From assembly GCA_008632985.1 (NCBI GenBank), contig QPGO01000068.1, positions 62,001-126,000 of the forward strand: DNA of 64,000 bases. The letters run 5' to 3'. Below, piece after piece: positions 6,001 through 63,083 of the stretch (positions are counted from its first letter, which is position 1; every line of letters begins with the position of its first letter). The notes under the pieces were generated by a model. It was given only the letters and a program-made list of their open reading frames with translations. It was not told where the DNA came from and ran no database searches. The position numbers were made by a program, and so were the translations under genes. This stretch comes from Psammoneis japonica. Lineage: Eukaryota.

Positions 6001-7620
6001 GCTGCAATCTGTGGCTGGTGCTGAGCAAAATGTGATGAGATCCGCCAGATGCTGGTTGCTTGCAGAGCTCATTCCACTGGCTCAAACAATGCAAATGAGC
6101 TGAAGGTGGCTTGCAAGTTTCCTCTGTGATGGAACACACAAGCTTCTTTTTTTTCCATTCTGAAAGCTCTGAGTGCAGTTGACTGTCAAGGAGCATGCCA
6201 CACATCATTTGGCTTCTGGCTGGTTGCACAAAAATCATGACACCAGGGAGCCAACAAATGAGGAAAACAACAAGCACAAGATTTCTGGCTTCTGAACTGT
6301 TTTGCATCCAAAAGACTGCATCCACAACTTCAGAGCCACCATGATGCACCAGTCTGCCAAGTCCAACTCCACATTGCCATGTGGAGGCAGGCTGAGCTCT
6401 TGCAAAAAATGTGCAATGACAGATCCAAGCTCTCTTGAGAGCTTGTGAAAGTTTGGATGCCACAGCTTGAAGTCACCACATTTGTTGTGAACTCATGCTT
6501 GTGCCATGGTGCCTTTCACACACTTCACCTTGTTTGACAGATTGCCGTGGCCATCTTGCTGCAGAAGCAACATTTCTGTGGAGGAAATTTGTCTCAGGGG
6601 CAGCCCACAATGAGAGAGACTCACAGAACAAAACAACAACATGGAAAAAAAAAACACACACGCAAGTTGAAATGACGCAAATGTGAAAAGCCTCAACAAA
6701 ATAAACCATGTCATGAGTGGCAACTCATGAGGTCTTCCACAGCACAACAAAAATGACATCACAGACACCTTTTCAGCTCAAAATTTTGCCACAATCTGCC
6801 CATGTCAACCTGGGTGTTCTTGAGCTCATCTTGTCTCTTGTGGTGCAATCCGTGCACCAAATTTTGTTGAGAGGATTCAAGCAAGAAGTGCCTTGGCAAT
6901 GATTGGATTTTTGAAGCTAGCAAAATCAAAATGCAGTTGTCCACATCATTGTTTTGCACATTGTTTTGAGCTGCAAGCCAAAAAAATTCCAACACTGTCC
7001 CACAGGGCGAAATGTGTGCTGAATCTGCACCAACTCCGGGTTTTTGCACCAGGCAGCACAGAAGAAAGTGAGTGGGCTGATGACTCCACTGGAGCACGGC
7101 TTGAGAGACACAGCTGCAGCATTGCAAATGCAGTTGTTCATTTGGATCTCAAAGGCAAATGGGGTTCTGGAATGCGCTGGCGACAGCAGCAAACTCTGCC
7201 ACAAAACTGACAGCACCAGTGCATTGCATTGAGGTTGAAGCCACTTTGGATGATGCAAGCTTTTGTGTGGGTGTGTGAAAGATGATGGTGGGCACCTCTC
7301 TCAAGGTTGCAAAATGCAGCACAGAGGATGGCAGATGTGCGCAGCAGCAGCGCACGCGTGCATGTGCTTTGTTTTGTGACAGTGCTTTTTTCCAGGAGAG
7401 ATTGTTTTGCTTGTCCCCACTCTCCTCTTGACAAGATGCTCAGGTGACACAACCCACAGCCCACTGGCTTGGCAGCAGTTGAGAAGAGTGCTGCACTGCT
7501 CTCTGGCTTGATGCGTCACACCATGACCACATGCCACCACACACAGCGGTGCAATGCTGTTGCTGGTGTGTGCTGCTGGCAACCAGCTTTGATGTTTGTT
7601 GATTTGTTGTCTTTTGCACC
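1..7620 (-). mobile_element. Heavily degenerate non-LTR retrotransposon (LINE with RT and RNase H, resembling the diatom Ambal-like type)
   Basis: Minus-strand fragments occur in LINE ORF2 order: RT-like LELKCTDGEWARL (~3.5 kb), VARHHHGLGMST (~2.7 kb; cf. GPxxYGGLG), ELASLQSCRPFMH (~2.45 kb; cf. LxxxNRCRLYL), RNase H-like PSALPRAGAQQRIL..HCMFCNRDKS (~1.9 kb), and WSSVDWRG..KIVQMNKCL (~1.4 kb). There are many frameshifts, and TpA and CpG are almost absent. Ends are approximate and other repeats may be included. Confidence 0.55.
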
Positions 7621-37230: not shown

Positions 37231-37299
37231 TGCTCTGCTTTTGTTTACACTCGTTCTTCAAGCATGGTGCATGTGGAACCTGCAGCACATTTTCATCAA

Positions 37300-43200: not shown

Positions 43201-44950
43201 AAATGTTTTCTGCAGCCTTCAACTTGCTGTGCAGCACATCCAGTGCCGCTGGCTGAAATCTGACTGTGGAGAACTGCACAAGTTTCTGTCAAGTGGCCTG
43301 CCAGTGACAAAAGACTGTGCAAAAAATCTTCTCTCTTTCCAAAAGCAAAAGAGTTCTCAAAGCCTTTCTTTTTTGCAGCTTTTGACACAAACACCAGCAC
43401 AGCTTCTCCTTGGGGTCATTCTCCAAAAATGATCCAAGGTGAGGTTGAGTGAGAATGGAGGCAGCAGCAAGCTGCATTGTTGTGTGTGCTGGCACAAGAG
43501 AATTGTGACTTGACCCACACCTGCAAGCAATGGTTGAAGCTGCTGGCAGTGGGGTCACATCAGCATTGGCAACCAGCATTGCAGCAGCCACAGGTCAGCT
43601 GTTGAGTCTCCTGCACAAAGGTGGACATTGTGCTTGAGCAAGGTCGTTGGGCTCATTGCTGGAAGAGGTGGGTGAGGAAGATGAGTTGTCTCAGCAGGGC
43701 ATGCTGGTGAATTGCCACTGCCACAAGGGTGCCATGGAAAGCAGAGTGGGTCAAATGGCTTGCCATTGTTTGAATCAGCAGCAATGTCAATGGGGTTTTG
43801 ACCAATGGCGCTGCTCCACTCCAAGGCAGAGGGGCTCACAAGGCCACCCTGGATCTCCCAGTTTGTGTTGTCATTGCCTGTTTCAGGACACACATGATGA
43901 CCTTGCTGATGCTCTAGCATTTGCTCTTGCCTTTCCCAGCAGGATTCAGGAAGAAAGCAAACCTGGGCAGTGTTTGGACAAACAGCAGCACCCTGAATTG
44001 AGCTGTTCCTTAAACACACAATGACAACATGCAACAACAGGTGCTGGCACACCAGTGCAAAGATGAGAGGCAGCAGTGGGGTCAGCATTGTCTGCAGTTC
44101 ATTGAAACATGTGCTGGTTGCTGTGCACCTGCCAGCCTTCTTCTTCTCATGCTGCTCATGGAGAAATTTGTTCAAGGTGGCCTTTGACAACTTGGCTTTG
44201 CATCTTAGCTGCCATGTGGTGGTTTAGCACTTGGAATGAATTTTGCATGTCAACCTCAAACTCTTGGCCTGTGCTGGGGTTTTGGCACTTTTGAGGTCAT
44301 TGCTCCTCTGGTGCACTCTCAACTGGGTCTTCCATGGCAAAGTCATTTGAGATGATGTCAAAATGTTGGCGTTCCACTTCTTGGTCAAGTGGCACTTCCT
44401 CTTTGGCACATGCAAAAGGAGCTCTGCTGGCCCGTTGCTGTTGCTGACCTTGATCTTTGACCATGCTGGCACTTTAAAATTGTCATTGGCGGCACCTCAA
44501 TGACTCACAGTGCTCTTGCTTGCATTGCCATCACACTCACAGCAGCACTCCATGCCTTGCTGGCACAGCTGCTCTTGCTGCTGTGCAAGGTGCATGGTTG
44601 CAGCTTCGGCTGATGTGCTTCAGTTGCTGGTGCTGCCAGCTCTGGCAATGACTGGTGACATGGCTTGTGGCTGGATGGTGTGGCAAGGTCTCACTGTGCA
44701 ACTCGTCAAGTGATGTGTTTGCTTTGTTGGTTCTCATGATGATCTTGTGGTGATTGTCAGCAGGAATCTTCGATGTGTGTTCTTCTTGCAGCTGCACGCC
44801 ATTTACCGCTCGTAGCTTCTGCACTGATGCAAATTCGTGTAGAAGCCACCAGCAACACAGATGGCGCAGAAGCGACGCAAACTGAACGGTGCGCGGGCGA
44901 CCGTTTAGTCAAATCGGTGCCGATTTGGTGCCGCCGTTCATTTCGGGACG
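37300..44950 (-). mobile_element. Degenerate non-LTR retrotransposon (endonuclease-like, RT, RNase H, C-terminal cysteine motif)
   Basis: Minus-strand fragments in order: endonuclease-like region (~44.5-44.9 kb), RT-like region (~41.3-42.7 kb), IGVNGNLQMKLWGTVGHLA (~40.9 kb), RNase H-like EITGLCSIICTV..IEVVCDGKSSL (~39.55 kb), TSHVIACP..LLKLIKWV (~38.9 kb) and QSVWSHCN (~38.6 kb). TpA and CpG are depleted. May contain nested inserts. Confidence 0.65.
39802..40043. repeat. Two adjacent tandem duplications (45-bp unit x2; ~68-bp unit x2)
   Basis: TCTGTCATYGTCAGTTGWGAGTTTGTCATTGGACCAATTTTGTGA starts at 39802 and 39847. AGTGCGTGCAATCAGGGATGGTGG...GGGAGAGTGCCTG starts at 39907 and 39975. Confidence 0.9.
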
Positions 44951-46949: not shown

Positions 46950-48800
46950 AAGAAGATGCTTTCAAGATGGGGGAACGCCTCTGGATGGCTGCTGTCCAAA
47001 GCAGTTCTGTCCTCTAGTGCATTTGGATGTTTTGCAAGTGCAATTTTCTTCATGCACAAAAGAGAGGCTGGGTGCTCCCAAGAAAACCCCCGAGAGCATG
47101 CTCCGGTTGGCTGACAGATGCTTTTTCGGCTCAAATTTTGCACAAGATTTTTGGACAGCTGCTGCACAAAGGCACCCCTCAAAGTGCAACCCTCCCAATC
47201 TGCAAGTCTTCTGCATTTGTTGATGGGGCTGGAATCCAAGTGCACAGCAGCAAATGCCAAGAGATGTCTGGGGGGGGGGGGGGAGCTTCTCAAAACTCAA
47301 AAACGGCCACAACCTCTCAGCATTGTTGGAGTTCTGAGTTTGGAAAACCCTTTGAGTGCATCACATTGCACACACAGCACAGGTTGCAAGTTTTTGTCAA
47401 ACAGTGTGACGTGGTTTTTAAGTTGTGTTCTTTTCAACAAAGGACATGACTGTGCAGCACTTTTCAATCTCAACTCTGCCAAAACAAGAAAGTCTTGCAA
47501 GGTCACTCACATCAGCTCACACACAGTTTTTTCATCTTTGAACAGTGGCACAGACAAAAAGCCACCTTGCAACCATGATGTGCTGCCGTGCTGCCTGTGG
47601 GCCATGCTGTGCCTCCTCTTCAGCAGTGCACCACATCACGTGCATGTGCAAAAAACTTCCATGTGCTGCCACCACCCAGGCTCCACTCTTTGCAGAGCCT
47701 GGCACTGAGGCACTTCAGAGTTGACAATGTTGCAGCTGTCAAGGAGATTGGTCATGATCTAAAGTGAGGCAGCTTAAGAGTGCAAGGGCAGATCATGCTT
47801 CAGAGAAGAGCAAAAATGTGCTTGTCTTCAACAGCTTTGAGCAGTTGTTTCTTGAGCATGTTGGGCACAGTGTGCAAAACTGGAAGTGTTCCTTGGCCTT
47901 GTTGTGTTGACATTTTGGGGCTGCAGCATCTTGGGCAGCATTGGCGCTGGCTGCCAGCTGTGCTTCCAGGTGGTTGGGCATGACACAGGCAGCTGTGTTT
48001 GGCAAAATTGTGAGTTCAGGACGAGGCATGATGAGGGTAAAATGTGAAATGATGGCCATTGTGCCAATGACTTTCACATCCAGAGGGAGCTGCCATGGCT
48101 TTGGCACAAAGTTTGCCACCACATGGAATGGCAGGCAACTCTGCCAGACTTCAGCGTGGGTCCTTGATGAGCACAAGCACGGGATGTGGGTGCTGCATTG
48201 CAGACATGTTGGTGTCGACAATCATGCTGCATGTTGTGGTGGGTGGGTCATGTCATGGACATTCTTTGAAGGTGCCATTGCAAGGTGCAGGAGACACACA
48301 GGACCAGTGCTGTGGCTCTGCCAATGCAAAATGAAGAGCTGTGGGTGTGCAGCAGAGCAAGCCATGCCTGAAGAATGAGCTGAGCTGGTTGATGCATTTA
48401 AAAGTCATTGTCAGATTGGCACTGGAATGCACCACACCAATGTGGCCACTTGCAACACTGCTGGAGGTGTCGCGATCTTGTTGTTGCTTGTGCTCTTGAG
48501 ACAGGGGCTGGTCTCTCTGGGCCACCACTGGGGAGCAAACAACCATGTCTCCTCCTCAGTGGCACCAACAATGATGTGCACATGAAGCCAACTTTCAGGC
48601 TTTGCATGTGCTGATGCTCAGAGCAATCAGCAACTCCAGCTGTGCCACATTTCAAACAACATTTTGGGCAAAAAATGTTCGGGACCTTCAGCCCCCACAC
48701 AAGTTGCATTTTCAGAAATGTTGGTGGCTCAACAGAAAAGGTGGAGTGAGGAGCTGATGCCTGGATCATGCAGTTCCTCTCTTTGAAAATGACAAATGGA
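46950..48800 (-). mobile_element. Degenerate repeat containing a Ty1/copia (CoDi-like) gag-type fragment
   Basis: Minus strand reads LTILPNTAACVMPNH (~48.0 kb) and HTVPNMLKKQLLKAVEDKHIFAL (~47.81-47.88 kb), resembling diatom copia gag N-termini. TpA and CpG are nearly absent. Confidence 0.5.
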
Positions 48801-49443
48801 CAGGAAAGTGCACCATCCACTTCTTTCCCAGTGCCTCGAGGTTGGCTCTCCCGAAGTCCGGCTCGTCTTTTCGTGGGCTGGGGCGAGCGAGCACCTGCTG
48901 CAGCTCCATTTCCACATTGGCTCCTCCTCTTTTAGGTGGAACTCTCTAGATCGAAGTCTGAAACCGAAAGATTTTGGATTGCCGCCCTCGCTGCTGTCAG
49001 AAAATAGAGCCATGACGATTGCCTGCACCAATCATTTTGCTGCATTTTGTGCCGGGCGTTCGAATTGATTGCAACACATGACGGTCATTTCGGTGCGCAC
49101 TTTTGCGCGACCCACGCGACATGACTAACACGCGTCAGTGCGTGGTGCTGGTTGTTTTGCTTCTGACCGTTCTGTCTTCTGTGAGGTTTCATGAGGCTGT
49201 CTGTGCATGTTGATGTTGTCTGGTTGTGCATGTTGATGTTGTCTAAGGCAAGCTGCATTGGATTGAGTGAATGTGGAAATGTGCGAAATTTACGCATTGT
49301 TGCAGTTTCTTTGCCAAACAGTTGGTCCTCATTTGTGGCCATGCTCAATCCGCGGCGGCTCAAGTGAAAGTCCATGTGCATGTGTTTTGCGCATTGACGC
49401 GGTTGTCTTTGCCAAATGGTCATTTGTAATTTGCTCAATTCCA

Positions 49444-49903
49444 TCATTTCTGGCCACACTTCTTCTGAAGGGACTTTGCTTGCTCCTTCTCCTGCTCCGC
49501 CATCTCCTCCTTGGTGAAAAATCTCCCCGACCACTGTGGAGTCACCGCTGCACATGCTGCCTTTAGCTCCTCCATGGTTGAACCATCCTTGGGTGCGACC
49601 GTTGTTTCCACATGATGACTGTCCGCTGTCGTGTTGTCTTGCACAAGCACAGAAGTGACATCAAAATTTCCCAAGGTGAGGTCAAACGCCGCTCTTGCTT
49701 CTTCCAAGGTGATCTCCTCTTCGTCTTCCTCATTCATCAATGACTGAAGAAGTTCCGCACGTGTCTGCACCTTTTTCTTGTCCTCACCAGTTTTCTTTGG
49801 CCCGTCTGCCTTCTTTGTTTGTTGTTGCAAATCCATGTTTTCTCTGTTGCTACGTTTTCTGTGATGGCTGCGTTCGCGTTTCTTGGTTTGTTGGTTAAAA
49901 TCC
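49444..49903 (-). CDS. Hypothetical charged protein downstream of Rep/Hel (possibly degenerate)
   Basis: Open frame MDFNQQTKK..MDLQQQTKK..EEDEEEITLEEARAAFDLTLGNF; no recognisable domain. Confidence 0.35.
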
Positions 49904-50052
49904 ATTTGACGTTGTGTGACGCATGTGCAGATTTCTGCGCAATGTGCTGATCTAATCGAAGTGTTCCATTTTACGAAAATTTCCGCATTTTTACGGTTGG
50001 GGTCGCCAAACAGTTGCACAGTGGTTGAGCATCCTAATCTAATGTTTGCGTG

Positions 50053-53000
50053 CTACATTGACATTTCTGCGTGCTGTTGCTGAGAAAAATGCGTGGCGCT
50101 TCTCTCCTTCATGAGTCTTGTCAAGGCTTCGTAGCCTTCTGGGACCTTGCATTTTTGCAGGTCCTTGCTCAGTGGCTTTCGCATGAACAGCCCTTCTCTG
50201 GTCTTTACTCTGGAGAGCACAACATGCACCCAATTCTGAGTGTAGCTCCAAGAGTGCACAAACAACTGCGGGACTCCACTCCCTTGCAGTTTGTGCCCTG
50301 CAGTGGCATTGTTGATGACAAACGGCAGCTGGGTTGCCTTCAGTTGGAAAGTGTGCCTTTGTTTGTCGCCTTCTTCTAAAATTAGGCTGGGCTTGGCGAT
50401 GCAAGCCCTGAAAGCATTTGTTTTTGGCTCAACTAAAAACTTCGCGAGGTCGATGCTTTTGTTGCAGTGTTCCAATGCAACGTGGTCTACCTGACTGGCA
50501 AGCACAGCAGGAATGCCAATGTTGTTGTCTAAAGTTGCCAGTCTTGGTTCCTGTCCTGGTTTGAGAACGACCTTGTCAACAGTGGCTTGCGTTCCGTTTG
50601 CTTGACCGTTTGCTGCATTTTCGTTGAAAGGTGTCATGACTCTGCATCTTCTGTAAATTCGTAAGACTGGATCCATTCTTCCTGATTGCATGACAACGTC
50701 TCCTTCACCACAGTTGTTCCAGAAGCTGTTGTAAACCGGAAATGGTTGGTAGAGTCTCGTGCCATTCTGCACCTGCAAGTCGTCACTGAAAATCAACATT
50801 GAGTCAAGGACGTCTCCATCTCTTCCATGCAGTGTTTCTGCTCTTTTTCGAATGGGCCAGTGTCAATTGCATCTCTGTCCTTATTTGCGCACGCAGCATG
50901 GCGGAGGTCACTGGGCAGATCATCTTCATTCTGAACCACTCATTCGTTGATGTGCTCTGTGTCGTCAACTGTGATCTTACCAGTGCGGAATCTCTTGAGC
51001 AGTTTTCCCCATGATGGATCGTCTTTAAACCTGTGCACACCACGAAGTTCTGTGTGGCAGTTGATCCACTCGTGAAACTCGGGACACACATCTTTGTGTG
51101 GTGGTTTCACTCCTTTTCCGACTGGTTCTAGTTGCCTGAGGTCACCTGCGAAAACAATGTTGACACCACCGCATGGCTTGCTCAATTCGCTCTTCAACAC
51201 TGTTAAATTCTCATGGAGTTTTTCTAGTTCTCTCTTGCTTGCAAAAGAAATCTCGTCTGCCGCCGAAAGTCTCGTGTCTGACCATGCTTCAATTTGCTCT
51301 TTGGTCATTTGCTTTCTTCTCATGAGGTGTGCAACTCGGTGGATTGTGTCCCCTTTGAGAACAGTCGCAGCCACTCCGGTCAGTGCAGTCACTCTGATTG
51401 TGCTTGTTGTGAACGGCTGCTCAACAAGCGAGCAATGCTCTCTTCCGCATTCCACGACGAGGTCTGTCATGGTTGATTTGCCACTTCCACCTGCACCATG
51501 TAAAAAACACACAAGTTGCAACGTTCTGCATCTTTGCACTTCCACGAGTTTCTTCAATCGGTGAAGGTTTGTTGCGAATTCGTGTCTGCCATTTCTCCTG
51601 TCAAGTCCATTGCGTGACATCTTGTCTTGAAGAGCGTCTTGGTGGTGAGTGAGCACAAAGGTTCCTGCTAGAATTTCAAAGGCACACTGCTGTTGCCCAT
51701 CCAGTCTTGCTTTCCTGGCCCAGTCTACGATGCTTGCTGCAGATCCGTTTGCTTGACGTGCATCGACGTGTTTTTCCAAACCTGTCACATCCTCAAACGA
51801 CCTTCTTGTTCTTTGCGTTCTAGTCAGTGTCACTCGAACAATGTCGTCTCTTGACAGTGGTCTGCTGTGGATGTGTTGTTGCACTCCTTCATTCTGGTCT
51901 TCCTCGTCGGTGTCATCGCCGCCCTCTAGATTCTCAAAAAGTTGTCGTTCATCAACCTGGCTTTCCTCGTTTGGTGGGTCAGTGTGCATGTCTGCCAAGC
52001 ATTTGCAACCACCCATGTGCAAACCTTTCTGTCTTGCACGTTTACCACTCAAATGCGCAGGAACAACTGCTTGGTCGCTCAACCCAATGTCATCGTCTTC
52101 TGGCTGCTCTGCCATTTCTTCCAAGAGTGCTTCCAGCAGTTGACCCTGAACGGCGCCTGAAAGACCTTCTTCCTCGTCACTTTTGCAACAGTCAAACGCA
52201 ACGTCAGCAGGTCTAAATTGCTCCATCTTTCTTTGCAGATCGTCAGATGTGCTTTTGAGACGAAGGCAGTTGGACTCAGCATCCTGCAGGTTCTGCAAGA
52301 AGTTCAAGTTTTCCTCTGCAATGACACCGGCTGCTGCGGAGAGTTGGAATTCATGCAGGCATGCATGGGTCATTGGTTTGAGTTCCGTCATTGTTCTGCA
52401 AGGTGCAAACAAGGCCAATGCCAACTTGCAGCACAATTCTTTGTCTGGTGTTGTTGGTTGCTGCGGATCTACAAGGCAACTGCCAAACTTGGCTGCATCA
52501 GGAAAATCACACTGAAGTGCTTTCAACAATCGCGGTTGCTGTCGCTGTCTGACACCTTGAAGAAACTCATTCTTCGTTGAATTGCAAGACGGGTGCCTGT
52601 GTGCTCTGTCATCAAACATCATCATGCCGTGTTCGTTTTTCCTTGTGTTGCAAAGAACTTCGCATTCACTAAAAAACGAAAACGGGCTGAGATTCTCCAG
52701 TGCTGTTGGACGACACAGGCAGTGCAAGGCCTGGCATTGGAAGAACGGTGCGTCGCCAAAACAGGCTACAGTCGCAGACACTTCATCTCTTTCTAGTGTG
52801 CTGACAATGTCTTTCAAGGGGCACCATGCGGTCAAATGAGATTCGATGAAACGGCTTCCATTCCTTGTCATGCAAGATGCAAGTGGTGGTCCAATGATGC
52901 TCATCTTGTCATGCGAGCAAGCACCCCACATGAGATGTCTGATTGCTTCCGATGCATCAGATGCGTGTTTCCGTAATTCCATTGCTGTCCTGTTCGTAGT

Positions 53001-55703
53001 TTGAAGCACTTCGTCGTACGATGCAGTGTCATCTTTCTGGGTGTCTTTTAGGATGCACTCAATCGTACACTGAGCAGATGGTCCAGGCATCAACAAAGCA
53101 ATGTTTGTGTTGCATGTCAGTTTTGATCTGCTTGTTGCAGGGCACGACACGTTTTGAAAAGCATCGTGCTTTCTCCTCTTTGGAACAACTTCCTTCACGC
53201 ACCGATGCGCAAAAGTTCCATCCCAGCTGAACCACTTTATCTGAGTGTCATCTGCGTTCCTTGCCAAATCATTTGGACACAAAGCAGCTGGTTGCCTGTG
53301 ATGGCAGTCACCCAGTTTGAGCTCCTCTTGTTTCCTTTTCCTTGACTGCGTGTCCAGTTCCTCGTGTGGGGTTTTTTTGTGCATTTTACGCAACTCCACG
53401 CATTTGGGAAAACACGACTTCGTAACGTGCATGTGATGGTTGTAAGCTGCGTCCGGTGTGCATGCCTCCATTGTCCCTTGCGGACCACTTCGCTGGCATT
53501 GTACACACATTGCTTTTAGTTGCTTTGCATGGTTGTCTGGATGGCGAGTCAGGCCAGGCACACGGTGCCGTGACTGTAAAAAGCTTTCTACAAACTCGAC
53601 GTTTGTCCAGCACTTGGTGCAGTGACGACAACAAGCAAACATTCCGTTCTTCGACTGCTGGCCGTCTTTGCGCCTCAGGTTTCTTAGCTGTTGGTCGTCT
53701 GCTGCTTTTGGAGAGGTGCGACACATTTTTGGCACTGTGCAGTCATGATCGAATGCTTCACGCAATGCGTCAGTGCTGAAGTCCTCGCTGCAGATTAATT
53801 CCGTGCTGCAGATCTTCTGAACTATGTTGGCAAGGCACTCAGCACCTTCACGTCGGATCTGTCTTGCTGGCGAATGCAGTTTCTCTCTTGCATTGTTGAT
53901 CGATGCGAACCAGATCTGCATGTGTCCGTGTGCTGCCAGACGTCCCTGCTCCTCAACTGCGGCTAAAAATGCGGCTGGCCTGCCAATGTAGAAGTTAAAG
54001 TTTTCTCTTGGTTGGTTGGCACTCAGATCCCAACCCACTGCCTCTTCTGTTGCAATGTCAAACAAGCACTCGAATGCAAAGGCTGTTAGACCGGGAAACT
54101 TTAGATGCAGTTCATTACGTTGCTCAGCCCTGCCAGCAAGAATTTCGTCCATCAGTTGTGTCACGTCTTCGTTTGGGTCCAGGATGACACCCGAGTGCAG
54201 TTGCACAAGAAACGAATTTGCATCGTCCGGACTGACGGTTAAGAAAATGCCACCCTGACCAAAATGATGCTGACAAGTTTCGGCGTTTCTCCTCATTTTC
54301 TTTGCTGCTTCGTCACTGTGTGGCAGAGATGCAGATGCAACGTCGAGTGTGCACAAAAAGTGGTGCCCGAGTCCACAATCTCTTCTCTTGCCCAAGTTGC
54401 GATCACAAACAGCTCTGTCCACATCATCCACTGTCAGTTTGTTTGCAAACTGTGCAGCCTGATTCTTGTCCCTGACTTTCCACCCTGCACTCTGTGGCAT
54501 CCTTTGCTTCATTGTCAAGTTGCAGCATGTTAACACGAAGAGCTGCTCGTGGAAGTGAGGCTGGGAAATCCGTGCCAAGTGGTCGGCAGAGTGTGCAAGG
54601 TTGGTGCCATCTGTGAGACTTCCGTCTTTCTTCATTCTCGTCTCATTGATTCCTCCTCTGCCAAAAGGAAACTGCAGCAGACACGCATTGATGAAGTTGT
54701 TGCCTTTGAAATCACTCGCAGATTCTTTAGACAACTGTGCTTGCACCTCTAAATCAAATCCATTGGCAGCAGCTTCGTGTGCAAGATCTTTGAAGCAGCC
54801 CAGGTTGCGCTGACCACCGGTCGCAGGAGACATGGTTCCATCAGGAAAGCAAATGTGAAATGACTCTGAGGTCTCAACATTCGCATTTTCTCCTTCTTCT
54901 TCGCTGGTGCTGTCGACAAGTGCGGGATTCCGCAGATTGCGCCTGGCTTCATCTAGATTTGTCTGTTGGCACACCCACTCTTGGTCATGGCACAACAGCC
55001 ATTCCATCGCCCTCAGCATGCAGTGCGTCCCAATTCTGTTCTTTGAACGCGCAAGTTGTCTTTGCTCCGGAGTCATCTTTCCAGTCATCAGTGCAATCAC
55101 ATTCTGATGTAAATTCAGTGCATCGAAGTGCACAACAGTTCTTACGATGCTTTGCATCTTGACTTTGTAGCATGTCAGACTTCCCCGAAGCTTCTTCTGT
55201 TTGCCGCCAAGGTGACTGAAGCAGCATCCGCATGTTTTCACTGGTGTGAGCATTGCTGATTCTGCTTCGGTCAGAGACAACAGTTCGTGCGGCGGGGTGC
55301 CAAAACAGCAGTTGTTCGCCATCGCGCACATTGGCGTGACAGCTCTTCCCAGGCTTCTTCGGCATTCGCTGCAGCAAGTGAATCCGTCGACGCGTCGTCT
55401 GTCTTCCTGCACTGCGCATTGGGCACGGGGAGAAAGCAGCAGGTCTTTGATCCAATCAGCATCTTCATGCTCTGCAGTGCAGCAGGACTTGAGACGATCA
55501 GATGTGCTGTTCCAGTCTGAAGGGGTGAGTGAGTTTCTTGCTGATTCCAATGTTTCGAGCGGCAAGTGGCAAACTTCTCTAGGTTTCAGCAGAACGTCAC
55601 AGACTGAACATGCGTGTGGTCTAAATTCTCCATCTCCATGTGGACAAAGCATCTCAAACTTTCTGTTGATTGCACTGCAAACACGGGAGTTGGCCTCGTC
55701 CAT
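50053..55703 (-). pseudogene. Helitron Rep-helicase (HUH replication initiator + PIF1 helicase), about 1900 aa, with one break near 50800-50940
   Basis: DUF6570-like PMCAMANNCCFGTPPHELLSLT; Rep motifs FGQGGIFLTVSPDD and VEEQGRLAAHGHMQIW; PIF1 motifs GAGGSGKST, TALTGVAATVLKGDTIH, DEISF, GGVNIVFAGDLRQLEPV, QLPF..ATAGHKLQG and HVVLSRV. Many conserved Tyr are replaced by Cys/His. Confidence 0.92.
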
Positions 55704-55789
55704 CTTGGTTTAAGATGACACTTTGACTCGACAAATTTCAAGAAGTCACTCAGCAAAAACAGTTGTTTTTTCAGTGCGATCACCGTGAA

Positions 55790-56470
55790 GCTGCGATCGG
55801 TGCTGTCCAATCACCACAGCAATGTGTGTTTTCTCACCACCTGCAGCACTGCGACTGGTGTCGTCCAGTCACCGCAGTGGTTCTGTCTGGTTGATCAACG
55901 AACCGCGTCGGTGCCATCCGTTCACCGCAGCGCTGTGTCGTCTTCTCACAACCTGTGCAATCAGGTCACTGTGAGTGCTGCGACTGGTGCTGTCCAGTCA
56001 CCGCAGCCGAGTTAATTGGTTGCTTGACGAACTGCGTCGGTGCCACCCGATCACCGCAGCGTTGTGTCGCGTTCTCACAACCTGTGCGATCAGGTCTCTG
56101 TGAGAGCTGCGACTGGTGTCGTCCAGTCACCGCAGCTGAGCTTGTGCGTCATCTCACAACCTGCATTACGAGGTGCAGCGCTGTGTTGTTTGCTCACAAC
56201 CTGTGCAATCAGGTCGCTGTGAGAGCTGCGACTGGTGTCGTCCAGTCACCGCAGCCAAGTGAATTGGTTGCTTGACGAACTGCGTCGGTGCCATCCGATC
56301 ACCGCAGCGTTGTGTCGTGTTCTCACAACCTGTGCGATCAGGTCTCTGTGAGAGCTGCAACTGGTGTCGTCCAGTCACCGCAGCTGAGCTTGTGCGTTGT
56401 CTCACAACCTGCGTTGCCAGGTCACTGTGAGAACTGAGAACTGCGATCGGTGTGGCCCAATCACCGTAGT
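55790..56470. repeat. Tandem array of hairpin-forming units, period ~119-129 bp
   Basis: The core GACTGG-N6-CCAGTCACCGCAG starts at 55853, 55982, 56111, 56230 and 56359 (AACTGG variant). It alternates with CGTCGGTGCCAYCCGWTCACCGCAG and CTCACAACCTGTGCRATCAGGTC..TGTGAG units. Confidence 0.92.
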
Positions 56471-56626
56471 TGGATGCTTTTCGTTTCCCTTTGCGCAAAG
56501 GTTCTGTCACAAAAAAGTGAGACGAAAGTGTGCCTCTTTCACCTCAACGGAAGAGTGACGTGTGCGTTCCTCCCACATCCTTCTTCGCACCAGACGTGCA
56601 ATGTCCTGCTTAGTTTCGTCGACGTT

Positions 56627-56735
56627 GAACATCCCATGGGACAAGATTTGGATCTTGTTCAAGTTGTTTCGACCATCTGCTCTGAACATTCCATGGGGCA
56701 AGATTCGGATCTTGTTCAAGTTGTTTCGGCAATCT
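56627..56735. repeat. ~57-bp tandem duplication
   Basis: GAACATYCCATGGGRCAAGATTYGGATCTTGTTCAAGTTGTTTCG occurs twice. Confidence 0.85.
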
Positions 56736-57270
56736 TGGTGGTGGGCGCAGCTTTGCGCAAATTCCGCAGAATCACGCTTTGACGAGTGGCGGGGCAGTTG
56801 AGTCAGTTGTGTGGCAATGACAATGCGATTGACATCATTCGTGTTTCCAAAGTGCGCGCGAATCCTCCAAATGGGTGATGGGCCCACCTCAGCCAACTGC
56901 CAGCACAGTGGTGACAGCGATGGCGTCGACCGTTTGGCGACTAGATTTCGTGCGCGATGGCCGCGCGGCAGCAACGGCTGAAATGCACATGAAGCACGGA
57001 CGGAATTGCACGTGATTTTACGCATTTTCAGCAAATTGGTGCGACTTTGCGTGCTCCGATCCTTGCATCTGTTTTGTTCAAATTGAATCCATGCACCACT
57101 TGCAAGTGCTGACACCTGGAAGGTTGCCTTGTTGCAGTTCGACGTGTTTGGATCTAGTTGCTGACGTTGCCAGTTCTCCTTGGCATGATGTGCGCAGCTC
57201 TGCTGGGTCTTTCTTGGCACTTCTGAACGATTGCACTTTTTGTTCCCACAATTTCTCTCCGACTGATTCG

Positions 57271-58143
57271 ATGGCATGCAAAAGAAACACAACGACCTCC
57301 CCGGCTGCGAAAGCCAAAGTCGCCGAAACCAAACAGAAGAAGGCAAAGACGAAGTTTTCTGATGCTCTGTTGAAGAAACTGGGTCCGCCCCGCAAGACCA
57401 ACGGCTTGACCGACGACGACCTTAAACCGGAAGACCACCTTGCCAAGCACGGGTTCAAGCTTTCCAAATCTGCCGGTTCTGACGATGGCAGCCATTCCGA
57501 TGAGGACGCCCTCCTGCGCTGCACCACCATCACTGTCGGCCGCAAGAAAGGCGTTGTTTTTCGTCTCCAAGCCAAGAGTCCCCTTTTGACTGATGTTTGG
57601 TCGGAGAAGGTTCTGTTTGACAACCTTCGCAGCAGGACTCCGTGGGCGGTTCAAGTCGGATTCCACCCTTGTGCTGGCAGGTGGGTTCACGAAGGCGAGT
57701 TGCAGACGAACGCCAAGAACTGCGCCGTGCGTCTCTTCTTCATCTTCCTCGAAGAAGTCCCAACCGATGCTAAAGTGCGCGGCCTTGGGAAGTGCATTGC
57801 GAAGCAGCTCAATGATGACCCTGAGAACAACACCGAGGTCTTCGTTGAAGACGACTTCTTCTGGATGAAGGATGCTGTTTGGTCTGAAGTGATCGGCAAC
57901 GAGGCAGCGCTTGCCGAGCTTCAGAAGGAAGGTGGTCAGTTTCACATCGGTTGGTGTGCCCAAAACAAGAACTCACTTCACAGTTGCTTCTACGAGGGGT
58001 CGTTGCCTGTGGAACTCTGTCGTCTCATTGGAGCTCCGGCAGAAGAAGCTGGAGAAGAGGCCGACGATGATGTCGAGCTCAACTGTGAAGTTGACCTGAA
58101 CGTCGATGACGACTTGGTGCTTCAGGACAGCGACGAAGACTGA
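57271..58143 (+). CDS. Hypothetical protein with a basic N-terminus, globular core and acidic C-terminal tail
   Basis: 290-codon open frame from MACKRNTTTSPAAKAK to DDDLVLQDSDED with coding-like third-position C/G bias; no domain recognised. Confidence 0.65.
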   Translation: MACKRNTTTSPAAKAKVAETKQKKAKTKFSDALLKKLGPPRKTNGLTDDDLKPEDHLAKHGFKLSKSAGSDDGSHSDEDALLRCTTITVGRKKGVVFRLQAKSPLLTDVWSEKVLFDNLRSRTPWAVQVGFHPCAGRWVHEGELQTNAKNCAVRLFFIFLEEVPTDAKVRGLGKCIAKQLNDDPENNTEVFVEDDFFWMKDAVWSEVIGNEAALAELQKEGGQFHIGWCAQNKNSLHSCFYEGSLPVELCRLIGAPAEEAGEEADDDVELNCEVDLNVDDDLVLQDSDED

Positions 58144-58230
58144 GTTGTTTTTTTTTTTGCCGGTGCAGTGTAAATTTGCAAATGTTTGGCAAACCAAGTG
58201 TTGATTGCAACTCAGCTTTCCTCTGTCTCT

Positions 58231-59217
58231 TCAAGTGTGTGCCATCTCCGACGACAACTTGTCGTTACTGCGAAGCAATGGCGAATTGAGCAGAGCAACT
58301 AGCGTGTGACGTCCAGTGCAGTGACAGCAAAAAAACAGTTCAGTTGAGTTCTTGAGCAAAATTGGCCATTTCGCGATGGGCAAATGCTTCCGTTCCAAGT
58401 GTGTCAGAGTGGGACGTCGCATGTGCTGGCTGGTTGACTGAGAAGTCTCCTCTTTCTTGGCGCACTTGTGGAAGACGAGATGTTTCACGTCTCCGCTGTG
58501 CCACAAAAAGTCGCCATCATGGCAATCCGCCGTGAAGGACTCGCACATCCACTCTCCCGCGTGCGACGCGAACAGCGGATCTAGCGCCACCACCACGGTC
58601 CCAGCACGACACAACTTCGAAAGCATCGCCTCTGCCTTCTGCTGTGTGTTCTTGTCATCGACCATGCGGGAGTTGCAGTTGTTGAAGAACACCTTGAGTC
58701 CTTTCTTTTTCCACAAAGGAGCCAGCCTCTCGTCCAAGAATGACTTGTTGATCAACTCTAACCCGCCGTTCGAGCGAAGGCCAGCACGATGAGCCCAACG
58801 TACAGCCTCTTGGTGACGATCGTGGTCGGCCTCGATGCTCACCACGGTGCAACGGCGACGAAGTAACTTGAGCCCGATGCTGGGTCCGGCAACTCCCCCG
58901 CCCATGTCGACAGATGCATCACAGGTGTGATTCACGCCAAGAAGGCGTTCGTTCAAAAACACTTCGCTGCTCAAAGCGAAGCCAACTTCGCCGCCGTGCG
59001 AAGATCCGCTTCCGTCTCCGGAGACACGCCTGCTCTGGAACGCGGAGTCCGGAGCCGTTTGAAGACAAAACTCCCCAACACTTCTGCAACGATGGTTCAT
59101 CGCATCCAACCTTGTGGCAACATCAACCTTGCTTGCAGCGGGTTCGACCAGACATCGCGTTTCCAAACCAAACTGTGACGTGCACAGAATGCGTAAAATT
59201 ACCGTCGCGCCCTCCAT
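58231..59217 (-). CDS. DOT1-like (histone H3K79-type) class I SAM-dependent methyltransferase, mutated
   Basis: Ordered motifs SHGGEV (cf. YGE), DASVDMGGGVAG (cf. DVFVDLGSGVG), VVSIEA (cf. GIEI), NKSFLD, VFFNNCN (cf. IFVNNF), LCRAGTVVVAL (cf. LKPGTRIVSL) and FLWHS (cf. VSWT). Confidence 0.7.
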   Translation of the reverse strand: MEGATVILRILCTSQFGLETRCLVEPAASKVDVATRLDAMNHRCRSVGEFCLQTAPDSAFQSRRVSGDGSGSSHGGEVGFALSSEVFLNERLLGVNHTCDASVDMGGGVAGPSIGLKLLRRRCTVVSIEADHDRHQEAVRWAHRAGLRSNGGLELINKSFLDERLAPLWKKKGLKVFFNNCNSRMVDDKNTQQKAEAMLSKLCRAGTVVVALDPLFASHAGEWMCESFTADCHDGDFLWHSGDVKHLVFHKCAKKEETSQSTSQHMRRPTLTHLERKHLPIAKWPILLKNSTELFFCCHCTGRHTLVALLNSPLLRSNDKLSSEMAHT

Positions 59218-59692
59218 GCGGCGAAATTTTCAAACGCGGCGTGCTGCCTCCACCTGCGCATGGAGCGACGTGTGGAGTCATTTTGAACAGATGTGTGGAC
59301 GCGTTGAAACAATAAGATGCCTTTGGGCGACAAAATTTGTTTTGAATCTCGGCCTGCTTCTCATCGTCACCGCACTTGCACATCCGTGTAATTCAAACAC
59401 ACGAGCTGGCATGGCACGTGACACACTTCTACGCGAGAACTCGTGCTGAGATTGCCGTGGGATGATCCTCCCTCCGCGGAGACAAAAACAACGCGACAAC
59501 ACTTCCGTCATCATGTTTTGAAACACATTTCAAATTGAGACACACCATGTCGCAACTACCTCGTGCCTCGCTGCGTCGTCCTGCCAACGACAAGCACTTG
59601 TCGTGATCGAGTTACAGCCGGTCTCGACAGTGTGGGGGTTTGGGACGTGCAGCTCGCAGCCCGACAACAAGCAAACACTTCTCGCGATCAGG

Positions 59693-59858
59693 TTTCGACC
59701 CCACTCCCCTGGAGTCCGCTGGTCCCTGTCAACAGAGTTTTGCTTTGGGTGCTCTTGAGGCAACGGAAAGCAGACACATCTCTTGATTGGGTTTTGACCC
59801 CACTCCCCTGGAGTCCGCCGGTCCCTGTCGACAGAGTTCTGCTTTGGGCACTGTTGAG
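59693..59858. repeat. ~66-bp direct repeat, two copies ~99 bp apart, between the divergent DOT1-like and dioxygenase genes
   Basis: TTTYGACCCCACTCCCCTGGAGTCCGCYGGTCCCTGTCRACAGAGTTYTGCTTTGGG starts at ~59693 and ~59793. Confidence 0.88.
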
Positions 59859-59936
59859 ACGACAGTGACAGTGTCAAGCAGCAGAACATTTACCGGCAAG
59901 TTCGCACACACGTTCTCTGCGAACACCGCATCGTCA

Positions 59937-60980
59937 ATGCGCACCAGGACACACGAGAATGTGTTGAGGGCTCAACCGCCACTTCGTAAGGCCCACCGCA
60001 GCCGCAGGCGAATCCGCAGCCGCGCCAGCAGGAAAACATCCAAGATTGCTCGCCTCGTTCCACTCGCACCGTGCGCCACTGAGAGTCTCTCCATGCACTG
60101 CGTAGCCAACCGCACTCTAGTTTATAACGGCGACTACACTCAGCCTGCACCACCTTGTCTTGCTGACATTGACTTTGCCAAATTGGCTCCTCTGGTCGTC
60201 TGTGACCCTGTGCTCGATCTGAAGCCTTTCTTTGGCTTGGACGGTTGCCACTGCAACAACACCTGCACCCTGCTGCCGCGTTCTGCTGTGGTGTTCAGCT
60301 CCCCCAACCCAGCAGAACCAGTTGCTCAGTGCCGAGCGCTCGAAGCACTGGAATGCTGCACCGCCCAGTCCACCGTGCGCGGCAAACAACGCGTTGCCTT
60401 CATGGAGATGGACAGGAGCAAGCATTCCACGATTGGCCTGGCTGCCACGAGATGCACTTGAATTTCTTGCAAGCAGCCTGGCACAGCCGACCAACACACT
60501 CACCACCTCACCAGACTTCTTTCACGCATGGAGCACCTTGTCAATGAGTGCGTGGACTGTGCCATCCTCAAGGGCATCGCTCGTGTCAAAAAGTTTCACA
60601 ACTGGAAATCCCTGGTGCGGTCAGATGGCATTTTCTCCTCTCTGGCGGCTGGGCGCAATGTCTTCCTCAACGCCCATCAGGACCAGGACTTCTTCCTGTC
60701 AGCAGTCACCGTGGTGGGAGTCCCTCCGTCCGGCAGCCACACCATGAATGACGGGATTGTGGCGTGCTTCTGCTTCCCTGCCGAAGGCATCTCCGTTGCA
60801 CTCCGGCTTGGTGATGTCATCATTTTTAACCCCACCAAGCACCACTGCATCTCCAGCAGGACAAACTCAAACGACGAGTTCTTCTGCATGTCTCTCTACC
60901 TGAAGAGTGCTGCAGTGGGCAAGAACAACAATTCAGTCCCCCTTTCTCTAGAGGAAGAGACCATTCTCAGGCGACTGTGA
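59937..60980 (+). CDS. Fe(II)/2OG-type dioxygenase resembling the TET/JBP family, with a frameshift near 60460
   Basis: IFSSLAAGRNVFLNAHQDQDF (HxD), FCFPAEGISVALRLGDVIIFNPTKHHC (distal His) and CMSLYLK. The upstream frame (VRGKQRVAF..KHSTIGLAATR) abuts it and probably encodes the N-terminal half. Confidence 0.65.
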
Positions 60981-61185
60981 CAGCACAAAATGACTTGCTA
61001 AATTTGCGTAAATTTGCTGACTTTCTGTGCTCAGGCGACTGTGCAGGTGCCTGCCAATTTGCCAGATTTGCGCAAATTTACCGACTTTCTGTTCTTCCTC
61101 GTTCCCATTTTTCGAACCACAACTGGGGCCACGCCTTTCCAACCAATGCTGCAGTTTCGCTGAAAAACACCAACACACTGTGCTG

Positions 61186-62799
61186 CTAATTTACAGAGCA
61201 CACTACACGGCAAATGTTTTGCCAGACGCAGAGCTTCTCCCCCCCCGACTTGGGGAGCAGACGCGATTTCTTCTTCCGATTCATGGCACCCGACGTCGCC
61301 TTCCTCTTCTTCTTCTTCTTCTCCGATTTGTCCAAGTTGCATCTGCAGAGAAATTCCTCCCCGGGCATGATTCGCTTCGTGACTGTCAAGCACCCGTCAT
61401 TGTAGAACTTGCAGTTGTTGTCCGCATGTTGGCTTGCCTTGATCTTCTTCTTGTCCTTGAACGACTCGGTGGCATCGTTCACGCAGTGCATTCCGAGGTA
61501 GAGTGGATGGGAATTCTTGTTCCCTGGACCGCTAAAATCAAGCGGTTTTGGCTCCACTGTGACGCAGTGGCCCTCACTGTCACGGATGGTGGAGCAGCAC
61601 ATGCTGTGGTCTTCTCCAAACTTGCTGTCGTGGTCGCACCACGAGTGGCTCCTCGTCGCACCGGGCACCCTGGGGCCCACGTAGATTCCAACCGTGCTGC
61701 CTTTCTGGAACTGGCGCAAAGCAAAAAAACCAATGCCTGCGCCCCTCCGTTGCGATGCGCGTAGCTCGCCCACCTCCACCTCCTTGGGGCCTGCGGAGCA
61801 AACGGACTTTTCGAGGTAAAACAACGCAGGTTGAAGTGACACGGCGCCTCATCCAAATGTGCACACTTCTGCACTTGCTCTCTTCACGAGGCAGACCAGT
61901 GCGAGCGACCACCCCACTTCGAAAGCCTCGACGGTGGTCTTGAACACTTTGTTGCTCTTCGGCGTCGAGTCTGGGATGCCCCTCTCGCCGACTTCCGTGC
62001 GGTGCCTCCACACCCACTTGCAGTGTTCGCCGTGAGCATTCGCGACGGCTTCAGGGTCGCTCCTGATGCACCCCAGTTCTCCCAGCGCGGGGAACCAGAG
62101 GTCGGGATCATTCGGTGCATCCTTCATCAGGCACATGGACTCCTGGAAATCATTGGATTTTTCGTGCCGCAACACCCAGTCCCACAAGTCGAATGACGGA
62201 TCGTTGGGGTCCGGAAATTGCTTTCCTTCTTCTTCCTCTTCCGCCGTTGCTTTCGCGACCACTTTGGCCGCGGGCTTGGCTGCCTCCTCGCTTTTGCCGC
62301 TGCAAAAAGGTGGGACCTCCGGTTTCACAAAGGTGGCCTGATCACCCACCAACTCGATCTTGCAACCGGCCTCAAGGAGCTGCTCGGCGGTGTGACCCAG
62401 CTGCTGTGCTTCATTCCAACCACAAATTTGAAAGGTTGGCTCCGGCGGCACGGCTTTCTCCCTCTTTTCAGTTTGGGACTGCGCCGGCTTCTCTGACATC
62501 CTTGCGCGTTCGGACTCGACGGACACACCCTCGGCACTTCCCTCGGCGCCAAGTGCAGTCATGGCAGCTGCCGCCGCGCCTTCGGCACCCGTGAGTTCTG
62601 CCATGACTTCCGGAGCTGCTGCATCCTCTGCTTTGCCAGACGCAACGATGTTGTCCTCCGCCATTCTAGCGCCGTGATGACAGAGCTGCACTGACTGCTG
62701 TGTGGTGTGCTGCTTTGTTCCAGCTGTTGGCGATCCACATCCTTCTGCGCACGCAAACGCATGACACTTTGCACCAAATTCCACGCAGCGCGTCTGCAC
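61186..62799 (-). CDS. SET-domain protein (putative lysine methyltransferase) with a long N-terminal region and one in-frame TGA at 61849-61851
   Basis: Motifs SQRRGAGIGFFALRQFQKGSTVGIYVG, LGMHCVND and NCKFYNDGCLTVTKRIMPGEEFLCRC, followed by a Lys-rich tail. ORFs 61849-62799 and 61186-61842 are in the same frame. Confidence 0.8.
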
Positions 62800-63083
62800 C
62801 TGTCTGCGTCCGTCTTCACTGCTGCGCGCACTGCGGTGCTGCAGCGCACCCTTTCAAACCTTCATCAATGTTTGTTTTTTCCTTCCTTTTCCTTTTCTCT
62901 TCTTCTTCTATCTGGCTGGGAGGAACTGCTGGATAGCCGGTGTATTCGATTAAGGGTGGTCGGTTGCTACTTTTTTAAGCTCGAATTCGGCCGAACAGCT
63001 CGCATTTTGCATGATTTTTCCTGAATTTCACCGTGCTTCACCGTGGTGAAAACAACAAGCCATGAGTCTGTGACGGAGGTGGT

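What the first reader, a model, noticed from the sequence alone, without database searches (positions are those of the whole stretch)
59937..60980. Element-borne TET/JBP-like dioxygenase with an atypical co-substrate motif
Seen: an HxD (HQD)...H (HHC) metal triad in a DSBH-like pattern with LRLGDVIIFN. The final strand reads FFCMSLYLK with no obvious Arg. Known: TET/JBP enzymes oxidise 5mC or thymine and normally use a terminal-strand Arg to bind 2OG; Chlamydomonas CMD1 uses ascorbate instead. Inference: this may be a DNA base-modifying enzyme with non-standard chemistry. If it oxidises T, it could even relate to T->C changes at TpA (speculative). The Cys could also be a decayed Arg (CGC->TGC).
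Basis: partly seen in the sequence, partly recalled or inferred. Interest (0 to 1): 0.72.

Follow-up and report, generated by a model that had tools for sequence, protein, structure and literature searches.

The report
Transposon TET-like enzyme with rewired pocket
This is a broken copy of a DNA-base oxidising enzyme gene carried by a jumping element in a diatom-like alga; its large unannotated family lacks the arginine that normally grips the co-substrate, so it either holds that co-substrate another way or does different chemistry.

Summary
The motifs are real. The gene runs 59547-60980 inside a ~14-kb Helitron, has three in-frame stops, and has at least 34 copies in this genome. An AlphaFold model of an open-frame sister copy (pLDDT 95) matches TET2, NgTET1, CMD1 and CcTet ahead of AlkB. 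The missing Arg is a family trait: 0 of 150 aligned members have Arg/Lys on the last strand. It is not decay: the Cys is invariant in 30 of 30 copies, and structural end-points put Phe445, not the Cys, at the Arg position. A basic residue sits instead five residues after the distal His (130 of 150), where canonical TET/JBPs are hydrophobic (25 of 25). That suggests a relocated 2OG anchor (about 45%); a CMD1-like co-substrate is the main rival (about 27%). TpA-to-CpA/TpG mutation is real and strong (67-78% of sites, about ten times the CpG rate). It also hits LTR relics, and 80 of 80 related metagenome loci show no TpA loss, so a causal link is weak (about 8%). Transposon-borne TETs are known in fungi and Chlamydomonas. 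This scan has reported other copies in this genome before.

The parts
59547..60980 (+). TET/JBP-like dioxygenase gene, 477 codons, broken by TGA at codons 20, 80 and 305; catalytic domain in roughly codons 170-470
   Evidence: AF2 model of sister copy L003; fold searches
60675..60689 (+). HxDxD: metal ligands His377 and Asp379, plus Asp381, which aligns with the base-reading Asp of canonical Tet_JBP proteins with a one-residue gap
   Evidence: H 149/149, D 148/149, D 148/149; profile alignment
60843..60860 (+). Distal metal His433, conserved Ser436, and Arg438 (His+5), the candidate relocated co-substrate anchor
   Evidence: His 149/149, Ser 142/149; His+5 Arg/Lys 130/150; Arg 30/30 copies
60879..60905 (+). 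Terminal DSBH strand F445-K453: Phe at the canonical Arg position, Cys447 two residues on, Ser449 at CMD1 Ser414, Tyr451 at the stacking aromatic, Lys453 at the base-reading His/Arg
   Evidence: residue roles from PMC7854593 and PMC11040006
60378..60380 (+). Arg278, conserved; candidate for the N-terminal active-site Arg (TET2 Arg1261, CMD1 Arg244); assignment inferred, not shown
   Evidence: Arg 142/145 aligned
48916..62945 (-). ~14-kb Helitron-type element with ends shared by the other copies fetched
50053..55709 (-). Helitron Rep-helicase (1589-aa frame 50940-55709, plus a further frame 50053-50862 with no Pfam match that probably continues it)
   Evidence: Pfam Helitron_like_N, PIF1, AAA_30, DUF6570; frames
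55790..56420 (.). Internal tandem repeat of the element
   Evidence: multiple self-overlapping matches
57016..58143 (+). Cargo frame of unknown kind (375 aa stop to stop)
   Evidence: no Pfam match
58231..59229 (-). Cargo frame head to head with the dioxygenase; a glycine-rich stretch resembles a SAM-binding motif (recalled, not tested)
   Evidence: no Pfam match at E<=0.1
61186..62853 (-). Two adjacent frames in one reading frame, split by a stop; the downstream one is SET-like
   Evidence: Pfam SET E=0.0075, below cut-off

Best explanation
The intact ancestor of this gene encoded an Fe(II) TET/JBP-type DNA dioxygenase, carried as cargo by a Helitron. It flips a 5-methylpyrimidine, most likely the 5mC laid on repeats by the host's C5 methyltransferases, into a pocket lined by Asp381, Tyr451 and Lys453, and oxidises the methyl group, which weakens silencing of the element. 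The co-substrate pocket is rewired across the family: the terminal-strand Arg is replaced by Val/Ile/Phe, and an Arg/Lys five residues after the distal His most likely takes over the grip on 2-oxoglutarate. Shown: fold, metal triad, family-wide loss of the Arg, reciprocal pattern at His+5, transposon context, and that this copy is broken. Inferred: substrate, anti-silencing role, and that His+5 reaches the pocket. TpA mutation is a separate, repeat-wide process of which the gene is a victim.
For: Fold: TET2 Z 17.5 (rmsd 3.7, 252 aligned), NgTET1 14.8, CMD1 14.0, CcTet 13.1, then ALKBH1 11.5, among 48,161 chains; Foldseek ranks 1-26 are all these four enzymes. Profile match to Pfam-confirmed viral Tet_JBP proteins: 97.5%, E 6e-12. 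Triad and Lys invariant or nearly so in 149 relatives. Register: end-points of three structural alignments each put residue 445 on Arg289/Arg410/Arg385 and Lys453 on His297/Arg418/Arg393 (residue numbers from PMC7854593, PMC11040006). Reciprocal pattern: family His+5 Arg/Lys 130/150 and Tyr-6 never Arg; canonical viral set His+5 Ile/Met/Phe 25/25 and Tyr-6 Arg 25/25; TET2 has Leu at His+5. Context: 6 of 15 longer metagenome loci scanned have a Helitron, Plavaka or RT neighbour; host has C5 methyltransferases (27 matches); CpG decay in the copies. Precedent: PMC12730594; 10.1101/2022.06.16.496473.
Against: No coordinates were available, so the direction of Arg438 is untested, and DSSP shows no bridge at that residue. 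20 of 150 members lack Arg/Lys at His+5, including the closest relative P0003, and only some are CpG-type decay products. The register rests on end-points and assumes no gap in the last 15 residues; TET2's end-points do not fit as simply, and hhalign prefers a gapped register. Ser449 matches a vitamin C ligand of CMD1. Pocket residues do not separate 5mC from T: the viral JBP-like set has the same Asp and a basic residue at Tyr+2. No Pfam Tet_JBP match for any member scanned. No activity or expression data.
Confidence: 0.45

Rival explanations
1. CMD1-like chemistry: same element role and 5mC substrate, but 2OG is not used. Ascorbate or another small molecule is the co-substrate, and the product is a hypermodified base.
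For: No Arg/Lys on the last strand in 150 of 150. The S-x-Y-x-K end mirrors CMD1 Ser414/Phe416/Arg418, and Ser414 contacts vitamin C. The positions of CcTet Thr323 and Tyr361 appear to be Leu and Pro here (by offset and by PMC11040006 passages). CMD1 is itself transposon-borne.
Against: Other CMD1 vitamin C ligands are not matched by offset: Thr399 corresponds to Val/Ile/Leu, Ser335 to Ala (134/149), Thr337 mostly to Gly. CMD1 is not the best fold match. The conserved His+5 basic residue offers a simpler account.
Confidence: 0.27
2. The family oxidises thymine (JBP-like, making 5hmU), without causing the TpA mutation.
For: Y-L-K resembles Y-L-R of the viral JBP-like set. The top viral structural matches include proteins named JBP1/TET oxygenase. 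T-dioxygenases mark transposons in dinoflagellates (PMC11572971).
Against: A basic residue at this place also reads 5mC in CMD1 and CcTet. In dinoflagellates 5hmU silences transposons, which a transposon would not be expected to carry.
Confidence: 0.12
3. The enzyme oxidises T in TpA steps to 5-formyluracil or further, and mispairing with G causes the TpA to CpA/TpG changes in this genome's repeats.
For: The process is a strict, symmetric dinucleotide effect with a 5' purine preference and no strand coordination, which fits a persistent site-specific mark. 5fU pairs with G and gives T-to-C (PMC6100112, abstract). Phage T-dioxygenases read the 3' neighbour, one preferring NTG then NTA (PMC13229309). 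A relative from another dataset shows the same Tyr-to-Cys/His decay (P0005 vs P0007, 8 of 52 differences). No other family member and no canonical Tet_JBP gene surfaced in this genome.
Against: 80 of 80 metagenome loci carrying relatives (37 non-redundant groups) have TpA o/e 0.53-1.05, like host genes here (0.55) and unlike repeats here (0.03-0.16); collapsed assemblies could hide mild decay. 119 of 150 relatives have no Cys/His at four conserved Tyr columns. LTR relics without the gene are hit harder than the Helitron. All 30 copies examined have lost two conserved Tyr. A-to-G on the other strand fits the data equally well.
Confidence: 0.08
4. A metal-binding but catalytically silent DNA binder, or an oxygenase for RNA or protein.
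For: Loss of the usual 2OG ligands; no sequence match to any solved structure.
Against: The metal triad is near-invariant over 149 divergent relatives. Nucleic-acid TET enzymes stand clear of prolyl hydroxylases (Z 10.3 and below) in the fold search.
Confidence: 0.05
5. The Cys is a decayed Arg (CGC to TGC), so the parent enzyme was a canonical TET/JBP.
For: A gapped profile alignment sets Cys-x-Ser on Arg-x-Ser; the genome does mutate CpG.
Against: Cys in 30 of 30 copies (TGC 27, TGT 3), whereas Arg245, Arg278 and Arg378 are still Arg in 23-27 of 30 and CpG decay is only 8-23%. The column is Cys 77, Val 28, Ser 13 and never Arg in 150 relatives.
Confidence: 0.01

Closest known systems
Transposon-encoded TET/JBP dioxygenases of fungi, including Helitron- and Plavaka-borne ones (PMC12730594; passages and section 3.4 read)
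   Same: TET/JBP cargo on DNA transposons, spread over several superfamilies; here Helitron, with relatives beside Helitron and Plavaka genes.
   Different: Diatom-type host (named relatives: Fragilaria crotonensis, Seminavis robusta); that paper has no occurrence of 'diatom' or 'stramenopile'. Family motifs HxDxD and S-x-Y-x-K, and no terminal Arg. I did not see its Figure 7, so I cannot say whether its PU or PE types keep the Arg.
Chlamydomonas CMD1 and the Helitron2-borne TET/JBP genes (PMC7854593, three text parts and passages; 10.1101/2022.06.16.496473, passages)
   Same: Transposon-borne TET homologue with a non-canonical co-substrate site; Ser, aromatic and basic residues at the same three strand positions.
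   Different: CMD1 keeps Arg410 and blocks the site with Trp358; this family drops the Arg for a hydrophobic residue, does not match Thr399/Ser335/Thr337 by offset, and has a conserved His+5 Arg/Lys.
TET2, NgTET1, CcTet (2OG-dependent 5mC dioxygenases)
   Same: Best fold matches (Z 13-17.7); metal triad, stacking aromatic and base-reading positions are present.
   Different: Arg1896/Arg289/Arg385 absent; 10-12% identity; one residue fewer between the metal Asp and the base-reading Asp.
JBP and phage T-dioxygenases (PMC13229309, abstract and two sections; PMC11572971, abstract and two sections)
   Same: Profile match to viral Tet_JBP proteins, E 6e-12; Y-L-K against Y-L-R.
   Different: All 25 viral segments have the Arg; no relative of this family was found in viral contigs or phage records.
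Repeat-induced point mutation of fungi (recalled; for the TpA process only)
   Same: Repeat-restricted, dinucleotide-specific transitions that wreck transposon genes.
   Different: Direction is T-to-C/A-to-G at TpA rather than C-to-T, and no strand coordination was seen.

Membership tests
TET/JBP dioxygenases | TET-type DSBH fold, closer to TET/JBP than to AlkB or prolyl hydroxylases | tested here: met
   (model of sister copy L003)
TET/JBP dioxygenases | HxD...H Fe(II) triad | tested here: met
   149/149, 148/149, 149/149; intact in the window copy
TET/JBP dioxygenases | Sequence-profile relationship to Pfam Tet_JBP (PF12851) | tested here: inconclusive
   No direct Pfam match; profile-profile match to Pfam-positive viral proteins 97.5%, E 6e-12; Atlas feature hit 0.96 to a cluster with 18% Tet_JBP
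TET/JBP dioxygenases | Base-stacking aromatic and base-reading His/Arg at the end of the last strand | tested here: met
   Tyr 144/149, Lys 149/149; register; Lys rather than His/Arg
Canonical 2OG-dependent TET/JBP | Terminal-strand Arg that binds the distal carboxylate of 2OG | tested here: not met
   0 of 150 with Arg/Lys at Tyr-6 to Tyr-1; Phe in 30 of 30 copies
Canonical 2OG-dependent TET/JBP | Oxidises 5mC or T in DNA with 2OG | not testable with these tools
   needs an assay
CMD1-type glyceryl transferases | Vitamin C ligands (Ser335, Thr337, Trp358, Thr399, Ser414, His249) | tested here: inconclusive
   By offset only: Ser414 matched (126/149); Thr399, Ser335 and Thr337 mostly not; no residue-level structural alignment available
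CMD1-type glyceryl transferases | Makes 5gmC from 5mC and ascorbate | not testable with these tools
   needs an assay
Helitron | Rep (HUH) plus PIF1 helicase gene | tested here: met
Helitron | Dispersed copies with common ends | tested here: met
   11 other left ends and 13 other right ends coincide with the window's; several left flanks are shared between copies
Helitron2/Helentron subtype | Short asymmetric inverted repeats, hairpins, TT target | tested here: inconclusive
   An 8-base word lies near both ends in inverted orientation; target site not resolved; subtype features recalled

The most novel reading that the evidence does not exclude
A diatom transposon family of more than 1,000 clusters encodes TET-fold enzymes with a new co-substrate site. 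In this genome the enzyme oxidises thymine at TpA and so drives a repeat-wide T-to-C hypermutation, a reverse-direction counterpart of RIP. The milder form, a new co-substrate or a new DNA base with no TpA link, has a probability of about 0.27 and would deserve about 0.75.
Probability: 0.08. Interest if true: 0.9.

Novelty: new variant of a known kind. Interest (0 to 1): 0.5.

Why it matters
The one TET homologue known to me with a rewired co-substrate site, CMD1, makes a new DNA base. Here is a large family that Pfam misses (1,155 clusters at 50% identity), with intact natural members, in which the canonical Arg is gone throughout. One assay decides between a relocated 2OG anchor, which would be a neat structural variant, and new chemistry, which could mean an undescribed base in diatom DNA and a new reagent. 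It also extends the transposon-plus-TET partnership from fungi and a green alga to diatoms. Separately, the TpA mutation process found no match in my literature searches and deserves study whatever its enzyme.

Tried and rejected
Pfam gave no match for the gene, its four first relatives, or 13 further family members. PHROGs gave only weak unnamed matches, best E 5e-4. Sequence and profile searches of the PDB gave chance matches only. No relative was found in phage records or viral contigs. A PF12851 search of this genome found no candidate, which does not show absence. A distant relative as query returned the same 34 loci, so no separate host copy surfaced. Strand coordination was tested as a way to tell a T lesion from an A lesion: none at any distance for TA-TA, CG-CG or TA-CG, |z|<2 over 12 copies, so the lesion is undecided. 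No RNA holder was listed. One search had one locus mis-oriented and is superseded. Nine deaminase-family matches in the genome were listed but not studied. Literature searches found nothing on TpA loss in diatom repeats or on this family in diatoms. The library lacks most subscription papers; one Iyer paper was not held and Iyer 2014 was seen only as a citation, so earlier mention is possible. No supplements were opened; alignments in them may bear on the register. Rejected: decayed Arg; a non-nucleic-acid oxygenase as best match; treating this copy as functional.

Full report
Observation. The window is eukaryotic, with HUWE1-like, GST and violaxanthin de-epoxidase genes, and lies in a 91-Mb genome. 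Named relatives of the gene are from diatoms, so I call the host diatom-like. The frame begins at 59547, not 59937, and runs 477 codons with TGA at codons 20, 80 and 305. This copy is dead. Numbering below follows that frame (P0002).

The element. A Rep-helicase frame lies at 50940-55709 on the minus strand. Flanks of 13 other copies align with the window over 48916 to about 62945 at roughly 94-95% identity; 11 were followed to the left end and 13 to the right end, and the ends coincide. The dioxygenase search found 34 matches among 36 candidates, a lower bound, and 20 of the 34 have open frames of 502 aa or more. A distant relative as query returned the same 34 loci. A PF12851 search found no candidate.

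The family. A profile of five sequences found 1,155 clusters at 50% identity with E<=0.001. I aligned 149 of the best 150 with the domain of sister copy L003. His377, His433 and Lys453 are invariant; Asp379 and Asp381 are each 148 of 149; Tyr451 is 144, Ser449 126, Ser436 142 and Arg278 142. Of 10 clusters looked up, two have named members, from Fragilaria crotonensis and Seminavis robusta. A metagenome scan gave 178 relatives, of which the best 80 were kept. Of 15 longer loci whose neighbours I scanned, 3 have Helitron genes (two are near-duplicates), 2 have Plavaka transposase and 1 has a sub-threshold RT match; 9 show no recognised transposon gene.

Fold. The AlphaFold model of residues 170-477 has pLDDT 94.9. 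Against 48,161 chains the top four are TET2 (Z 17.5, rmsd 3.7, 252 aligned), NgTET1 (14.8), CMD1 (14.0) and CcTet (13.1); ALKBH1 follows at 11.5. Foldseek agrees. To obtain real Tet_JBP sequences I pulled viral loci with a short recalled motif. Five non-redundant ones were confirmed by Pfam, and their profile matches the family at 97.5%, E 6e-12.

Where is the Arg? PMC7854593 (three text parts and passages) and PMC11040006 (passages) give the last-strand residues. The 2OG Arg is 1896/289/385 in TET2/NgTET1/CcTet and aligns with CMD1 Arg410. The stacking aromatic lies six residues on and the base-reading His/Arg eight on. The structural alignments end at model 291 = NgTET1 304, 291 = CMD1 425 (7CY8) and 290 = CcTet 399. 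If no gap intervenes, each offset places Phe445 on the Arg, Ser449 on CMD1 Ser414, Tyr451 on the aromatic and Lys453 on His297/Arg418/Arg393. TET2's end-points are two or more residues off this, and hhalign prefers a two-residue gap that sets Cys447 on the Arg. In either register there is no Arg: 0 of 150 members have Arg or Lys from Tyr-6 to Tyr-1. Decay is excluded. Cys447 and Phe445 are fixed in 30 of 30 copies, while Arg245, Arg278 and Arg378 are still Arg in 24, 23 and 27 copies.

What replaces it? At His+5 the family has Arg or Lys in 130 of 150, with variable neighbours. The canonical viral set has Ile, Met or Phe there in 25 of 25 distinct segments (from 120 loci) and Arg at Tyr-6 in 25 of 25; TET2 has Leu. 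The viral set is narrow because one motif selected it. The pattern is reciprocal, as expected if the anchor moved to a neighbouring position. That His+5 and Tyr-6 lie close in space is my inference; I had no coordinates, and DSSP marks no bridge at Arg438. Twenty members lack the basic residue. For the CMD1 reading: Ser449 matches the vitamin C ligand Ser414, and CMD1 is itself on a transposon (10.1101/2022.06.16.496473, passages). Against it: by offset, Thr399, Ser335 and Thr337 are mostly unmatched, and CMD1 keeps its Arg. I put relocation with 5mC at 0.45 and a non-2OG co-substrate at 0.27.

Substrate. The pocket residues do not decide between 5mC and T, because CMD1, CcTet and the viral JBP-like set all have a basic residue at Tyr+2. 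Context favours 5mC. The genome has C5 methyltransferases (27 matches), CpG decays in its repeats, methylation in Phaeodactylum is limited to transposons (PMC12344493, passages), and fungal transposon TETs are proposed to counter silencing (PMC12730594).

The TpA process. Across 14 copies, 488 TpA-type sites are 67-78% converted to CpA or TpG and 830 CpG sites 8-23%. Other transitions run at 0.25-0.64% and transversions below 0.1%. Sites converted the same way in all copies would be missed, and some fully converted sites were assigned to TpA by inference. Copies chose CpA or TpG largely independently (agreement 0.48-0.65). A purine 5' of the T favours change (ATAT 1.00, ATAC 0.97, GTAC 0.90 against CTAG 0.35, TTAA 0.48). 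There is no strand coordination. Host genes have TpA o/e 0.53-0.55, the Helitron 0.16, and older repeats, including an LTR relic, 0.03-0.06. The gene is a victim: none of 30 copies keeps Tyr293 or Tyr407 and 12 keep Tyr451, so even open frames are probably impaired. Against a causal role, all 80 metagenome loci have TpA o/e 0.53-1.05, although collapsed assemblies could mask mild decay, and 119 of 150 relatives show no Cys/His at four conserved Tyr columns. In favour, the chemistry is plausible (5fU:G pairing, PMC6100112 abstract; NTG/NTA preference of a phage T-dioxygenase, PMC13229309), one relative elsewhere shows the same decay, and action in trans cannot be excluded. I put it at 0.08.

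Novelty. Transposon-borne TET/JBP genes, including on Helitrons, are described in fungi and Chlamydomonas. My searches found no description of this diatom family or of its missing Arg, and none of TpA loss in diatom repeats; the library is incomplete. Eight earlier notes of this scan cover other copies in the same genome and reach similar conclusions. The short texts I saw do not mention the structural register, the His+5 pattern or the strand test. Verdict: a new variant of a known kind, in a dead copy. Interest 0.5, because one assay on natural intact relatives could reveal new chemistry.

Noticed in passing
window 1-7400, 35001-44500, 47001-48900, 48916-62945: Repeat-restricted loss of TpA (o/e 0.03-0.16) with gain of CpA and TpG, about ten times faster than CpG decay in the Helitron, favoured by a 5' purine, with no strand coordination. 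Mechanism unexplained; a T lesion and an A lesion fit equally.
   Followed up: partly
window 35319-36654: LTR retrotransposon relic (RNase H-like and integrase matches), almost free of TpA and CpG.
   Followed up: partly
window 48916-48950 and 62915-62945: An 8-base word lies near both ends in inverted orientation, with hairpin-like neighbours. Most right ends are followed by a shared short word; the window and two other copies differ there. A TpA-containing stretch at the left end is kept in nearly all copies.
   Followed up: partly
L050, L052, L055, L059 (left flanks): Four copies on different contigs share the same sequence beyond the left end, so a larger unit, a preferred target or redundant haplotype contigs may be involved.
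   Followed up: no
window 58231-59229 (-) and 61186-62853 (-): Further cargo: a frame with a SAM-motif-like stretch, head to head with the dioxygenase, and a SET-like frame below the Pfam cut-off.
   Followed up: partly
proteins P0005 vs P0007; P0137, P0072: Tyr-to-Cys/His decay in relatives from other datasets suggests the TpA process is not confined to this genome.
   Followed up: partly
14 Helitron copies, non-TpA sites: T-to-C (0.27-0.39%) exceeds non-CpG C-to-T (0.11-0.13%), a possible leak of the same process into other contexts.
   Followed up: partly
L299-L306: The genome has many C5 DNA methyltransferase matches (27), several broken or clustered on single contigs.
   Followed up: no
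L307-L315: Nine deaminase-family matches in the genome; candidates to inspect if the TpA lesion is on adenine.
   Followed up: no
L133, L142: Helitron Rep-helicase with a C-terminal GIY-YIG domain next to a family member.
   Followed up: no
L151:1686-3764: A family member fused to a Zn2Cys6-like cluster beside a Plavaka transposase.
   Followed up: no
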